A DNA stretch of 64,000 nucleotides from the human T2T-CHM13v2.0 reference genome, Homo sapiens. The stretch spans positions 37,344,001-37,408,000 of the forward strand of contig CP086569.2 of assembly GCA_009914755.4 (NCBI GenBank), in the 5' to 3' direction. The notes beneath the pieces are model-generated. The model made no database searches. It was not told where the DNA came from and saw nothing but the letters and a program-made list of their open reading frames with translations. A program made the translations under genes and the position numbers. Position 1 is the stretch's first letter. Each line of letters begins with the position of its first letter. Below, piece after piece: positions 1 through 64,000 of this stretch.

Positions 1-1376
1 ATATATAGTATATGTTATATATCATATATAGAATATATTATACGGTTAATATACGTATTAAATATAAATTATACATTATATATATTATATATAATATATC
101 TGTTATATATAATACCCATTATGCATAATATATATATTATGTCTATGATATATATAGTATAAAACAACATATAATAATATATAATTGTATATATAAAATG
201 CGACATATAATATATATTATATTTTATGACATATGTAATATATATTATATATTATATATAATGCGTTGTATGTATAATACCTATATTAAATATATATTAC
301 ATGACTATGTTATTAATTACATATCACATGTGTTATATATTATTTATTTTACATAGAATATACCGGTTACATACAATATATAGTATGTTACCTATAATGT
401 ATAATTTATTACATGTAAAATAAAGAATGCAATATATTATGTATAATTTATAATATACAATATGTGGAATGTGATATATATAACATATAATATATGATAT
501 GTGATATAGAGTATATGATATATAACATACAGTATATGATACCTAATATATATGATATACAATATATATTTTATGATATGTATTCTATATGTTATATATT
601 CTGTTATATATAACTGTTTGAAATTATATATAACTGTATAATATTTTAGGTAAATATGTAATATAATATATATAACTTTATAATATATTATATATAACTA
701 TATATTATGTTATATATACTTTTATAACATAATTTACATAAAATATCATAAGATAATATATATTATATTATTTCATATTACGTAATATATATTACATATC
801 ACCCAATATAAGTAACATACATAATATTATAATATAGATTATATTATGTTATATTAAATATCATATATATCATGTATCATATATTCTATAATATATATTA
901 TACATTATATAATATGTATGTTGTCTATTATGTGATATATATAACTATATATATAATTATATTATTATACATATAACTAGATAAACATGTAATTCTACAT
1001 ATTTTCATTTATAATATATAGAATTATATAATCATATATAATTATTTATATTCTATAAAAAATTATATCATTATATAAATTAGAATATATAAAAATTATA
1101 ATATGTACTACAAACATATATATTATATATCATATATGATATAGTACCTTTGTTATATATCATAATACATATAAATGTGTATTATGTTATCTATAATTAT
1201 ATAATTTCATATATAAGATGTATAATATGTATTATTTATTATATACGTTATGTAATATATATAGTATATATAAGCTGACACAGGATAAATATTATATACT
1301 ATGACATATAAAATATATGAGGTTATATGTTACATATAAGGCATAGCACATAACATGTAATATATATCATATATAA
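1..1376. repeat. Partial monomer #0: the last ~1376 bp of the AT-rich block of an upstream monomer.
   Basis: Positions 1-1376 align base-for-base with 2421-3796 of the next monomer. Confidence 0.9.
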
Positions 1377-1670
1377 TTTTTTTTTAGACAGAGTCTTGTC
1401 CTGTTGCACAGGGTGGAGTACAATGGCGCCATCTTTGCTCACTGCAACATCTGCCTCACGGGTCCAAGCGATTGTCCTCCCTCAGCCTCCCAGGTAGCTG
1501 GGACTACACCACACTGGGACTACACCAGCTGCCACCATGCCTAGCTAATTTTTTGGATTTTTAGTAGTGACAGCGTTTCACTGTATTGGCCAGGATGGTC
1601 TTGATCTCTTCACCTTGTGATCCCCTTGCCTTGGCCTCCAAATTTGCTGGGATTACAGGCCTGAGCCAAG
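1377..1670 (-). mobile_element. Alu SINE fragment, antisense to the + strand. About 12 nt are missing from its 5' end. Its poly(A) tail is the T9 run at 1377-1385.
   Basis: The reverse complement reads ...CTTGGCTCAGGCCTGTAATCCCAGCAAATTTGGAGGCCAAGGCAAGGGGATCACAAGGTGAAGAGATCAAGACCATCCTGGCCAATACAGTGAAACGCTGTCACTACTAAAAATCCAAAAAATTAGCTAGGCATGGTGGCAGCTGG...GGAGGCTGAGGGAGGACAATCGCTTGGACCCGTGAGGCAGATGTTGCAGTGAGCAAAGATGGCGCCATTGTACTCCACCCTGTGCAACAGGACAAGACTCTGTCTAAAAAAAAA. That is an Alu consensus with many CpG>TpG changes, and with a 16-bp internal tandem duplication at 1498-1529. Confidence 0.92.
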
Positions 1671-2247
1671 ATCCATATTTTTTAAATGAAAAAAAATTTC
1701 AAAGGTACTCTGCTTGGTACAATAATCAAATGTATAAACTGAGGAATAAAACATAACCATGAAACCTACTTATAACTGCATATGGAAAATACAGAGGATA
1801 ATTTTTTAAATAACATATTTTGAAAGCCTTAACTAGTAATTTGAAGAGTTGGCATTTGAAAGGCCAGTATGAATATACCTTCAAAGCAGCAACACAGGTT
1901 CCCCATGAGAAAAAGCAAACTCAGGGAAAATAAAACCACAAAGGTTCAATCTCTTCTGACCTTTGAAAGACACAGCACAGACAGTGGTCCTTAGGACGAA
2001 GAGCAGGAGACCCCTAATTCCGTCACCATGGCGATAGGGAATAAACATTGCTGGGTGAGGGCACAATCCACCTTGTGAGGTCCAACTGCTGCCAGGAAGA
2101 CAGGAGTGCTTTTACATAGACCGAAAAGTCATTGAAGGCTCAGAGTTTTGTTTCAAGAACTGAATCCCAAGCCCACACTTTATTAGGCTGCGCTTCTTAA
2201 AACAAGTTATGAGATGGGAAAAAGGGCACCCACAAACATACGTATAC
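1671..2247. other. Complex, moderately GC-rich, non-Alu segment of the monomer, taken from monomer #1. It recurs at the same offset in every unit, Alu start +294 to +870.
   Basis: Normal base composition with no short-period structure. It carries most of the unit's non-Alu CpGs: gaccgaaa, gacgaag, ccgtcacc, ggcgatag, ctgcgctt, cacacgtt. I do not recognise it as a known interspersed repeat family. Confidence 0.7.
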
Positions 2248-61831: not shown

Positions 61832-62124
61832 TTTTTTTTTAGACAGAATCTTGTCCTGTTGCACTGGGTGGGGTACGATGGCGCCATCTTTGCTCACTGC
61901 AACATCTGCCTCACGGGTCCAAGCGATTGTCCTCCCTCAGCCTCCCAGGTAGCTGGGACTACACCACACTGGACTACACCAGCTGCCACCATGCCTAGCT
62001 AATTTTTTGGATTTTTAGTAGTGACAGCGTTTCACTGTATTGGCCAGGATGGTCTTGATCTCTTCACCTTGTAATCCCCTTGCCGTGGCCTCCAAATTTG
62101 CTGGGATTACAGTCCTGAGCCAAG
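61832..62124 (-). mobile_element. Alu fragment of monomer #26 (most diverged copy).
   Basis: Same position in the unit. About 3% private divergence. Confidence 0.9.
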
Positions 62125-64000
62125 ATCCATAATTTTTAAATGAAAAAAAATTTCAAAGGTACTCTGCTTGGTACAATAATCAAATGTATAAACTGAGGAA
62201 TAAAACATAACCATGAAACCTACTTATAACTGCATATGGAAAATACAGAGGATAATTTTTTAAATAAAATATTTTGAAAGCCTTAACTAGTAATTTGAAG
62301 AGTTGGCATTTGAAAGGCCAGTATGAATATACCTTCAAAGCAGCAACACAGGTTCCCCATGAGAAAAAGCAAACACAGGGAAAATAAAACCACAAAGGTT
62401 CAATCTCTTCTGACCTTTGAAAGACACAGCACAGACAGTGGTTCTTAGGACGAAGAGCAGGAGACCCCTAATTCCGTCACCATGGCGATAGGGCATAAAC
62501 ATTGCTGGGTGAGGGCACAATCCACATTGTGAGGTCCAACTGCTGCCAGGAAGACAGGAGTGCTTTTACATAGACCGAAAGGTCATTGAAGGCTCAGAGT
62601 TTTGTTTCAAGAACTGAATCCCAAGCCCACACGTTATTAGGCTGCGCTTCTTAAAACAAGTTATGAGATGGGAAAAAGGGCACCCACAAACATACGTATA
62701 CATTATGTATATAATAATATACAGTATCATATATATAATATATATAACCTATGTATAATATTGTTTTACATCCTGCATCTTATGTTATATATATTGTATA
62801 AAATATAATAATTGATAATATATAAGTTTTATATTTATACAATATGACATATAGTATATATTATAATTTATGACATATATAATATATGTTATATATCATA
62901 TATAGAATATATTATACGGTTAATATACGTATTAAATATAAATTATACATTATATATATTATATATAATATATCTGTTATATATAATACCCATTATGCAT
63001 AATATATATATTATGTCTATGTTATATATAGTATAAAACAACATATAATAATATATAATTGTATATATAAAATGCGACATATAATATATATTATATTTTA
63101 TAACATATGTAATATATATTATATATTATATATAATACGTTGTATGTATAATACCTATATTAAATATATATTATATGACTATGTTATTAATTACATGTCA
63201 CATGTGTTATATATTATATATTTTACATAGAATATACCTGTTACATACAATATATACTATGTTACCTATAATGTATAATTTATTACATGTAAAATAAAGA
63301 ATGCAATATATTATGTATAATTTATAATATACCATATGTGGAATGTGATATATATAACATATAATATATGATATATGATATACAGTATATGATATATAAC
63401 ATACAATATATGATTCCTAATATATATGGTATACAATATATATTTCATGATATGTATTCTATATGTTTTATATTCTGTTATATATAACTATTTGAAATTA
63501 TATATAACTGTATAATATTTTATGTAAATATGTAATATAATATATATAACTATATAATATATTATATATAACTATATATTATGTTATATATACTTTTATA
63601 ACATAATTTGCATAAAATATCATAACATAATATATATTATATTATTTCATATTACATAATATATATTACATATCACCCAATATAACTAACATACATAATA
63701 TTATAATATAGATTATATTATGTTATATTAAATATCATATATATCATGTATCATATATTCTATAATATATATTACACATTATATAATATGTATGTTGTCT
63801 ATTATGTGATATATATAACTCTATATATAATTATATTTTTATACATATAACTAGATAAACATGTAATTCTACATATTTTCATTTATAATATGTAGAATTA
63901 TATAATCATATATAATTATTTATATTCTATAAAAAATTTTATCATTATATCAATTATAATATATAAAAATTATAATATGTACTACAAATATATATATTAT
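61832..64000. repeat. Partial monomer #26 (first 2169 bp). The most diverged Alu of the array.
   Basis: About 9 private changes in 293 bp of Alu: agacagaatc, gcactgggtggggtacgatgg, cactggactacacc, ttgtaatcccc, ttgccgtggcc, agtcctgagc and ccataattttt. Confidence 0.9.

What the first reader, a model, noticed from the sequence alone, without database searches (positions are those of the whole stretch)
1..64000. Window lies entirely inside a 2.42 kb tandem satellite; best identification is human Yq12 DYZ2 / HSat1B
Twenty-five full monomers and two partial ones, 2411-2420 bp each, are arranged head-to-tail. Each contains one antisense Alu, a ~577 bp complex segment and a ~1.55 kb AT-rich block. 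The published description of the male-specific human satellite I unit is a ~2.4-2.47 kb tandem repeat with one Alu family member per repeat plus AT-rich satellite I sequence. T2T-Y later described the same thing as HSat1B arrays alternating with DYZ1/HSat3 on Yq12. The sequence shows the architecture and the period; the family name is from memory. If correct, this is constitutive heterochromatin and no genes are expected.
Basis: partly seen in the sequence, partly recalled or inferred. Interest (0 to 1): 0.55.

Follow-up and report, generated by a model that had tools for sequence, protein, structure and literature searches.

The report
Human DYZ2 / HSat1B satellite array

Summary
The window holds 25 full and 2 partial head-to-tail units of 2,411-2,421 bp (mode and consensus 2,420 bp), 96.4-99.9% identical to each other. 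Each unit has an antisense, 5'-truncated AluY-like element (292 bp), a 574 bp complex "HSATI" segment and a 1,554 bp block that is 86.6% AT.

Every published descriptor of DYZ2/HSat1B that I could test is met:
- a 2,420 bp consensus;
- the ACATACG junction 7-mer;
- 24% GC and 1 CpG per 147 bp;
- an Alu about 22% diverged from AluY;
- units about 98-99% identical to the consensus.

A 40-nt probe target designed from the 1984 male-specific satellite I sequence, which labelled only Yq in situ, occurs once per unit. Forty-three independent human-contaminant contigs carry the same repeat, and the window consensus is 99.3% identical to their consensus.

The tools hold no human assembly, so a Y location cannot be proven. 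It is probable (about 0.85). The main alternative is an acrocentric short-arm HSat1B array.

The window also shows how the array evolves. A 4,838 bp two-unit block is present three times at 99.7-99.9% identity, and one unit is a clean single-crossover hybrid.

There are no genes. The finding is already known and of low interest.

The parts
1..64000 (+). Uninterrupted HSat1B/DYZ2 tandem array. All units are in one orientation, in the order Alu(antisense)-HSATI-AT-rich. There are 25 full and 2 partial units.
   Evidence: There is no HSat3 pentamer enrichment (1.3 GGAAT/ATTCC per kb).
1..1376 (+). Partial first unit, covering consensus positions 1045-2420 (AT-rich block only).
1377..3796 (+). Reference full unit (unit 1), 2,420 bp.
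1377..1668 (-). Alu element, antisense on the + strand. A 9-nt A-tail (read as T9) comes first. The body aligns to AluY positions 13-280, so the 5' end is truncated by 12 nt. It has a 15-nt internal duplication and the B-box region is mutated (GAGATCAAGACC).
   Evidence: a sub-threshold mir-1268 hit that is Alu-derived.
1644..1683 (-). 40-nt target of the published 'Y-chrom' padlock probe. It spans the junction between the Alu head and HSATI, and a DraI site (TTTAAA) abuts it.
   Evidence: and the sequence.
1669..2242 (+). Complex 'HSATI' segment: 574 bp, 39% GC, ending in the ACATACG junction 7-mer (2236-2242).
2243..3796 (+). AT-rich block: 1,554 bp, 86.6% AT. It has degenerate 14/21-22/28 nt periodicities and a 230 bp sub-repeat of about 1.9 copies. 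All but two of the length-changing indels lie here.
20722..25559 (+). Two-unit block A-B (units 9-10), 4,838 bp. This is copy 1 of a recently duplicated dimer.
   Evidence: 13 differences in 4,838 bp against units 12-13.
25560..27977 (+). Unit 11, a hybrid unit. It is A-type at 13/13 informative sites (consensus positions 17-795) and B-type at 30/30 sites (positions 952-2286). The exchange interval is window 26354-26511.
27978..32815 (+). Two-unit block A-B (units 12-13), copy 2.
32816..37653 (+). Two-unit block A-B (units 14-15), copy 3. It differs from copy 2 at 6 of 4,838 positions.
61832..64000 (+). Partial last unit, covering consensus positions 1-2170.

Best explanation
The window is a stretch of the human composite satellite HSat1B (classical name DYZ2; Repbase/Dfam HSATI; the 'male-specific 2.47 kb satellite I repeat'). 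It most probably comes from one of the DYZ2 blocks that alternate with DYZ1 in the Yq12 heterochromatin.

The 2,420 bp unit arose once, when a 5'-truncated AluY-like element, about 570 bp of adjoining sequence and an AT-rich simple-repeat block were amplified together as one unit. The array encodes nothing. It is methylated constitutive heterochromatin.

Its behaviour is that of a satellite under concerted evolution. Out-of-register (unequal) exchange between sister chromatids, together with gene conversion, duplicates and deletes whole units and spreads variants locally.

Shown here:
- the architecture and its match to the published descriptors;
- the footprints of whole-unit exchange: a 2-unit block present three times, and a single-crossover hybrid unit.

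Inferred:
- the Y location;
- the heterochromatic, methylated state, taken from the literature;
- that this array belongs to an older layer than the genome-wide dominant variant.
For: Architecture and period.

Agreement with Hallast et al. and Rhie et al.:
- a 2,420 bp consensus;
- the ACATACG junction;
- GC 24.2%;
- 1 CpG per 146.5 bp;
- Alu 292 bp, about 22% diverged from AluY;
- HSATI 574 bp;
- AT-rich block 86.6% AT;
- 48% of units at the exact modal length, against a published 46.8%.

Sequence-level links:
- The 40-nt target of a probe designed from Frommer 1984, which labelled only Yq, is present once per unit.
- HaeIII in silico gives 2,146/2,144 + 204 + 45 + 25 bp. This matches the classical male-specific ~2.1 kb HaeIII band, which I cite from memory.
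- A 41-aa window ORF occurs verbatim on 24 JGI contigs.
- 13 bacterial 'genome' contigs and 21 metagenome contigs carry the repeat. This is the contamination class that Rhie et al. trace to T2T-Y HSat1B.
- Those contigs give a 2,420 bp public consensus. Several contigs are 99.9-100% identical to it, and the window consensus is 99.30% identical (17 differences).
- Truly divergent public copies are 2.3-3.7% away in Alu+HSATI, against 0.58% for the window.

Prior for the Y:
- 14 Mb of DYZ2 on T2T-Y, and 2,661-6,681 units per Y.
- A cut-off of more than 300 DYZ2 hits, set after counting hits on the other reference chromosomes, was enough to help single out Y contigs.

Mechanism:
- Units 12-13 differ from units 14-15 at 6 of 4,838 positions, and units 9-10 differ from 12-13 at 13 of 4,838.
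- Unit 11 switches from A-type to B-type once, across 43 informative sites.
- De novo Yq12 structural variants of 2,416-4,839 bp, each affecting whole DYZ2 units, occur about once per Y transmission (PMC12240836).
Against: No human chromosome sequence could be searched, so nothing here ties the window to the Y directly.

HSat1B also forms arrays on chromosomes 13, 14, 15, 21 and 22 and on chr10. The 40-nt probe target and a period of about 2.40-2.43 kb are also found in the divergent public copies, so neither discriminates between locations.

The window is not the dominant variant. Its consensus differs from the public consensus at 17 sites. At 16 of those the window allele is shared with divergent copies, so it looks ancestral. 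Only 16 of 25 units reach 98% identity to the public consensus.

Hallast et al. report that the Y 'end arrays' are the ones closest to the acrocentric copies. An older-type array therefore fits either a peripheral Yq12 block or an acrocentric array.

My equation of the public consensus with the Y consensus is an inference from copy number.
Confidence: 0.85

Rival explanations
1. The repeat is the same family (HSat1B), but the window lies in an array on an acrocentric short arm (chr13/14/15/21/22) or on chr10 rather than on Yq12.
For: Such arrays exist and can be sizeable.

The window consensus carries the ancestral allele at 16 of the 17 sites where it differs from the dominant public variant. 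Hallast et al. find that the older Y end arrays resemble the acrocentric copies.

Period and probe target do not discriminate.
Against: Non-Y HSat1B is a small fraction of the total (the cut-off of more than 300 hits).

The window consensus is only 0.6-0.7% from the dominant consensus, while the clearly distinct public copies are 2.3-3.7% away in Alu+HSATI.

The window lineage has almost no fixed derived changes of its own: one partial site, 2415C. This is unexpected for an array that was seeded elsewhere and homogenised independently.

The share of units at the modal length (48%) matches the Yq12 figure of 46.8%.
Confidence: 0.11
2. The window is an orthologous HSat1B-like satellite from a non-human ape.
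For: The Alu only shows that the source is a primate. The window alleles look ancestral relative to the dominant human variant.
Against: The window is 99.3% identical at consensus level to copies recovered as contaminants from 43 unrelated microbial datasets. Those copies are almost certainly human.

The window's own branch is close to zero, whereas a separate species should have its own fixed differences.

The ape sex-chromosome paper reports HSat1A and StSat/pCht expansions on non-human ape Y chromosomes, and its three HSat1 mentions all concern HSat1A.
Confidence: 0.02
3. The window is a different AT-rich satellite (HSat1A/SAR, 42 bp unit), or an assembly artefact made of one unit copied many times.
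For: Overall AT content is very high (75.8%).
Against: TRF reported no 42 bp array. The period is 2,420 bp, with an Alu in every unit.

The units differ from each other by 0.1-3.6% in a structured, locally correlated way, with indels shared by related units. A copy-paste artefact would not show this.
Confidence: 0.01

Closest known systems
DYZ2 / HSat1B (Repbase-Dfam HSATI; Frommer, Prosser & Vincent 1984; Rhie et al. 2023; Hallast et al. 2023)
   Same: The window shares the 2,420 bp consensus length and the tripartite unit (5'-truncated AluY-like element, HSATI, and a block of more than 85% AT). It also shares the ACATACG junction, 24% GC, about 1 CpG per 150 bp, and units about 98-99% identical to the consensus. 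Indels are concentrated in the AT-rich part. Changes affect one or two whole units at a time. The 40-nt probe target is present in every unit.
   Different: Nothing qualitative differs. The local consensus differs from the dominant public consensus at 17 of 2,420 sites, mostly by keeping what appear to be ancestral alleles. The window therefore represents a sub-variant, probably an older layer, and not the most homogenised central type.
HSat1B arrays on acrocentric short arms and chr10
   Same: They belong to the same repeat family and share the same unit architecture.
   Different: Rhie et al. describe them as smaller, locally homogenised offshoots of the Y repeat. The clearly distinct public copies seen here are 2.3-3.7% from the dominant consensus in Alu+HSATI, whereas the window is 0.58% away. 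Whether those copies really are the acrocentric ones is an inference.
HSat1A (SAR), the 42 bp AT-rich classical satellite I component
   Same: [quoted passage not shown]
   Different: HSat1A has a 42 bp unit with higher-order periods and no Alu or HSATI segment. The window has no 42 bp periodicity.
DYZ1 (HSat3A6), the 3.5-3.6 kb partner repeat of Yq12
   Same: It is a tandem macro-unit satellite that alternates with DYZ2 on Yq12 and evolves by the same whole-unit exchanges.
   Different: DYZ1 is derived from the CATTC/GGAAT pentamer and is 38% GC. None of it is in the window (1.3 pentamers per kb).

Membership tests
HSat1B / DYZ2 | Head-to-tail tandem repeat with a unit of about 2.4 kb (published consensus 2,420 bp). 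| tested here: met
   25 full units, mode and consensus 2,420 bp.
HSat1B / DYZ2 | One 5'-truncated Alu per unit: about 290 bp, about 20% diverged, AluY-like but not separable from AluS. | tested here: met
   292 bp with the tail, aligning to AluY positions 13-280, 78.1% to AluY against 77.5% to AluSx.
HSat1B / DYZ2 | An HSATI segment of about 566 +/- 16 bp next to the Alu head, ending in ACATACG at the junction with the AT-rich block. | tested here: met
   574 bp, with ACATACG at consensus positions 860-866 in 26 units.
HSat1B / DYZ2 | An extremely AT-rich block (more than 85% AT), overall GC of about 24%, and about 1 CpG per 150 bp. | tested here: met
   86.6% AT, GC 24.2%, 1 CpG per 146.5 bp.
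HSat1B / DYZ2 | Sequence identity to a reference copy (Frommer 1984 clone, Dfam HSATI, or the Hallast consensus). | tested here: inconclusive
   No reference sequence is held by the tools. Two proxies were met. The 40-nt Frommer-derived probe target occurs once per unit. The window consensus is 99.3% identical to the consensus of human-contaminant contigs.
HSat1B / DYZ2 | Units more than 98% identical to the array or family consensus. | tested here: met
   98.1-99.3% to the window consensus. 97.5-98.7% to the public consensus, with 16 of 25 units at 98% or above.
HSat1B / DYZ2 | A classical ~2.1 kb HaeIII fragment (definition recalled from memory: Cooke 1976). | tested here: met
   in silico HaeIII fragments of 2,146/2,144 bp plus 204, 45 and 25 bp.
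DYZ2 in the strict sense (Yq12 locus) | Male-specific, physically on Yq12, in blocks alternating with DYZ1. | not testable with these tools
   No human assembly or read set is available. The window contains no DYZ1, which is compatible with lying inside a block (median block size 230 kb).
HSat1A (SAR) | A 42 bp basic repeat with no embedded Alu. | tested here: not met

The most novel reading that the evidence does not exclude
The window is not from the homogenised central Yq12 blocks. It is an 'old-layer' HSat1B array, either a peripheral Yq12 end array or an acrocentric short-arm array. Its consensus sits almost exactly at the ancestral node of the dominant Y variant, so it would preserve the founder sequence from which the roughly 14 Mb of DYZ2 expanded. 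The 0.12 below is the probability of the non-Y (acrocentric or chr10) version of this reading. The old-layer status in itself is considerably more likely.
Probability: 0.12. Interest if true: 0.15.

Novelty: already known. Interest (0 to 1): 0.08.

Why it matters
The finding matters little in itself. This repeat was cloned in 1984 and has been fully mapped in T2T-Y and in dozens of later Y assemblies.

It has three practical uses.
1. The window can be masked as gene-free heterochromatin.
2. The same sequence sits in bacterial reference assemblies and metagenomes as human contamination. It is therefore a useful screening sequence.
3. Units 9-15 are a compact example of how satellites evolve by whole-unit unequal exchange. 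They show a three-fold 4.84 kb dimer and a single-crossover hybrid unit. This matches the de novo 2.4-4.8 kb events recently seen in pedigrees.

Tried and rejected
1. TRF cannot see the unit because its period limit is 500. It reported only the internal 230 bp sub-repeat.

2. The Rfam scan gave only a sub-threshold mir-1268 hit (33.9 bits against a gathering score of 83). This is the Alu right arm, not a miRNA gene. Nothing reached a gathering score anywhere in the window.

3. I hoped that the flanks of public contigs would reveal a DYZ2/DYZ1 or acrocentric junction. The non-satellite flanks checked (L016, L024-L027, L034, L035) look like bacterial or unrelated human sequence, so they probably reflect chimeric assemblies or scaffolds.

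4. I tested whether period separates the variant classes. It does not: divergent copies also show 2,401-2,426 bp.

5. Many contigs that looked 'divergent' overall (L022, L028, L032, L040, L043) are identical to the public consensus in Alu+HSATI and differ only in the AT-rich block. That could be real variability or short-read misassembly, so I did not treat them as separate classes.

6. A long inverted repeat in the AT-rich block (repeat finder I1/I2) is not clearly beyond composition: score 48 against shuffles of 33.5 +/- 6.4, maximum 60. Only a local hairpin at 3060-3225 stands out (z = -4.5).

7. An excess of variants at CpG sites is weak: 0.34 variant alleles per CpG position against 0.23 at other G/C positions, with only 32 CpG positions. 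No claim about methylation is made from the sequence.

8. Frommer 1984 (PMC318713) and Altemose 2022 (PMC9233505) are not held.

9. Six of the seven window ORFs looked up are not in the protein collection. No homology, structure or Pfam searches were warranted.
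Full report
OBSERVATION

These are a 1,376 bp partial unit, 25 full units and a 2,169 bp partial unit, at 97.0-99.3% identity to the query. Distances between identical 20-mers peak sharply at 2,420 bp, with minor peaks at 2,418, 2,417 and 2,416 and at two- and three-unit multiples.

After partitioning, unit lengths are 2,411-2,421 bp and 12 of 25 are exactly 2,420. The majority consensus of a MAFFT alignment is exactly 2,420 bp. 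Units are 98.1-99.3% identical to it (mean 98.7%) and 96.4-99.9% identical to each other. The composition profile shows the same three-part pattern in every unit.

ANATOMY OF THE UNIT

In consensus coordinates, with position 1 at window 1377, the unit has three parts.

1. Positions 1-292 are an Alu that is antisense on the + strand. A T9 run (the A-tail) is followed by a body that aligns to AluY positions 13-280. The Alu is 5'-truncated by 12 nt and has a 15-nt internal duplication. Because the 5' end is missing and the B-box region is mutated, I infer that the Alu is transcriptionally dead.

2. Positions 293-866 are a 574 bp, 39% GC complex segment. It ends in ACATACG.

3. Positions 867-2420 are a 1,554 bp block with 13.4% GC. 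It shows degenerate periodicities of 14, 21-22 and 28 nt and a 230 bp sub-repeat of about 1.9 copies.

Divergence from the consensus is 0.82%, 0.77% and 1.54% in the three parts. All but two of the length-changing indels lie in the AT-rich block.

The window has no ORF of 75 aa or more, no tRNA, and no Rfam family at its gathering score. The only Rfam signal is a sub-threshold mir-1268 match inside the Alu.

IDENTIFICATION

Hallast et al. [quoted passage not shown] Their figures, and the values measured in the window, are:
- final consensus 2,420 bp: window 2,420 bp;
- an 'ACATACG' 7-mer at the HSATI/AT-rich junction: present in the window units;
- Alu 290 +/- 2 bp, about 20% diverged, with AluY not separable from AluS: window 292 bp, about 22% diverged, AluY roughly equal to AluSx;
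- HSATI 566 +/- 16 bp: window 574 bp;
- 24% GC: window 24.2%;
- 1 CpG per 150 bp: window 1 per 146.5 bp;
- 46.8% of units at the exact modal length: window 48%.

Rhie et al. (10.1101/2022.12.01.518724) give an AT-rich part of more than 85% AT and units mostly more than 98% identical to the consensus. The window's AT-rich block is 86.6% AT.

A sequence-level link to the classical literature comes from PMC2212658. Its 'Y-chrom' padlock probe was designed from Frommer et al. 1984 and labelled only the Y long arm. Its two arms define the 40-nt target AAAAAATATGGATCTTGGCT|CAGGCCTGTAATCCCAGCAA. That target occurs once per unit on the - strand, across the junction between the Alu head and HSATI. There are 15 exact matches, 8 with one mismatch and 3 with two, against none expected by chance. 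The DraI site used with the probe abuts the target.

In silico HaeIII digestion gives 2,146/2,144 + 204 + 45 + 25 bp. This corresponds to the classical male-specific ~2.1 kb HaeIII band, which I cite from memory.

INDEPENDENT COPIES

A 41-aa ORF from the HSATI part occurs verbatim on 24 JGI metagenome contigs, of which ten were fetched. A 21-mer from outside that ORF found 13 contigs in bacterial genome assemblies, five of them RefSeq, and 21 metagenome contigs. One metagenome contig duplicates an earlier locus, leaving 43 distinct contigs. This is the contamination class that Rhie et al. trace to T2T-Y HSat1B.

The bacterial contigs share 46-94% of their 64-mers with the window. The exception is L016, where only 1 kb of an 8 kb locus is satellite.

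Twenty-nine loci that are at least 98.3% identical to the window consensus yield a 2,420 bp public consensus. Several contigs from unrelated projects are 99.9-100% identical to it. One example is LZSC01000004.1, labelled Mycobacterium sp. The window consensus is 99.30% identical to it, with 17 differences, and the window units are 97.5-98.7% identical.

A primate satellite recurring in dozens of microbial datasets is best explained as human DNA. Near-identity of the consensus argues against a non-human ape. In addition, the three HSat1 mentions in the ape sex-chromosome paper all concern HSat1A.

WHICH ARRAY?

HSat1B is not strictly Y-specific. [quoted passage not shown] The tools hold no human assembly, so the chromosome cannot be read off directly.

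Evidence for the Y:
- The Y carries 14 Mb of DYZ2, or 2,661-6,681 units.
- A cut-off of more than 300 DYZ2 hits was set after counting hits on the other reference chromosomes, and was enough to help single out Y contigs.
- In Alu+HSATI the window clade is sister to the homogenised dominant cluster at 0.58%. The clearly distinct public copies are 2.3-3.7% away.

Evidence that tempers this:
- At 16 of the 17 sites where the window consensus differs from the public consensus, the window allele is shared with divergent copies.
- At two of the three sites inside the Alu, the window allele matches the Alu consensus (Alu consensus from memory).
- The window therefore keeps ancestral states, and the dominant variant is derived.
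- Hallast et al. report that the Yq12 end arrays are older than the central arrays and closer to the acrocentric copies.

The window thus fits either an older-layer Yq12 block or, less probably, an acrocentric array. Because the window lineage has almost no fixed derived changes of its own, I favour the Y at about 0.85. An acrocentric or chr10 location gets about 0.11.

HOW IT WORKS

Nothing in the window is expressed or encoded. The array is structural heterochromatin, and the literature reports it as hypermethylated relative to DYZ1.

Its dynamics can be read in the window.
- Units 9, 12 and 14 (type A) are 99.8% identical to one another.
- Units 10, 13 and 15 (type B) are 99.7-99.9% identical to one another.
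- As 4,838 bp blocks, units 12-13 and 14-15 differ at 6 positions, and units 9-10 and 12-13 differ at 13.
- Unit 11, between the first two blocks, is A-type at all 13 informative sites from position 17 to 795. It is B-type at all 30 sites from position 952 to 2286.

That is the product expected from a single out-of-register exchange, offset by one unit, within an (A-B)n array. The crossover lies in window 26354-26511.

These are the same event sizes seen de novo on Yq12. Structural variants of 2,416-4,839 bp, each affecting whole DYZ2 units, arise about once per Y transmission. In addition, 29% of new point changes match another copy, which points to gene conversion (PMC12240836).

If the array is on the Y and mutates at the published 3.86e-7 per bp per generation, the 6/4,838 difference implies a duplication roughly 1,600 generations ago. 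This is an inference and ignores gene conversion.

The inverted-repeat richness reported for HSat1 is only partly visible here. One 166-nt segment folds far better than shuffles (z = -4.5). The best long self-complementary alignment of the AT-rich block is within the range of dinucleotide shuffles.

VERDICT

The family-level interpretation is supported by every test available. The Yq12 location is probable but not demonstrated. The feature is a textbook, fully catalogued satellite, so novelty is 'already known' and interest is low.

Noticed in passing
window 25560-27977 (unit 11); exchange interval 26354-26511: Unit 11 is a clean single-crossover hybrid of the two neighbouring unit types. It is A-type at 13/13 informative sites and then B-type at 30/30. 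This is the footprint of a one-unit unequal exchange.
   Followed up: yes
window 20722-25559, 27978-32815, 32816-37653: A 4,838 bp two-unit block is present three times at 99.73-99.88% identity (6-13 differences). This indicates a recent local higher-order duplication inside an otherwise 97-98% array.
   Followed up: yes
L011-L023 (LZSC01000004.1, CALPCJ010000037.1, WVXJ01000174.1, NZ_QLZA01000025.1, BMRF01000089.1, NZ_HF570958.1, JANCAF010000073.1, BMTH01000106.1, NRRR01000031.1, RWIJ01000080.1, NZ_JABGCL010000171.1, NZ_QVRA01000080.1, NZ_JABGCH010000134.1): Thirteen contigs filed under bacterial species, five of them RefSeq, are human HSat1B (96.7-99.7% to the window consensus). This is contamination of the kind Rhie et al. 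2023 reported.
   Followed up: partly
L016 5897-6920 (Nostocoides japonicum T1-X7 scaffold NZ_HF570958.1, 5.16 Mb): About 1 kb of HSat1B sits inside a 69% GC bacterial chromosome-scale scaffold, directly next to a run of N. A contaminant piece appears to have been scaffolded into the genome.
   Followed up: partly
L022, L028, L032, L040, L043: These public contigs are identical to the dominant consensus in Alu+HSATI but 3-11% divergent overall, so all their divergence lies in the AT-rich block. This is either real hypervariability of that block or short-read misassembly of low-complexity sequence.
   Followed up: no
L031 (metagenome contig BNJT01002008.1, 54 kb; only 4.3 kb held): This long contig carries a clearly divergent HSat1B variant: 87.6% overall, 1.7% divergent in Alu+HSATI, periods 2,388-2,435. 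It may be a non-Y array recovered from host DNA.
   Followed up: no
window 1481-1547 and every unit (- strand): Sub-threshold Rfam mir-1268 hits (33.9 bits against a gathering score of 83) fall in the Alu right arm. They reflect Alu-derived similarity, not a miRNA gene.
   Followed up: yes
whole window (alignment of the 25 units): The variant spectrum among units is rich in transversions (ts/tv 0.80, with many A<->T changes). The excess of variants at CpG sites is only weak. The AT-rich block is twice as variable as Alu+HSATI.
   Followed up: partly
window 2333-2760 and the same place in other units: A 230 bp sub-repeat of about 1.9 copies at 75-77% identity lies at the start of the AT-rich block. 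It is a trace of older internal duplication.
   Followed up: no
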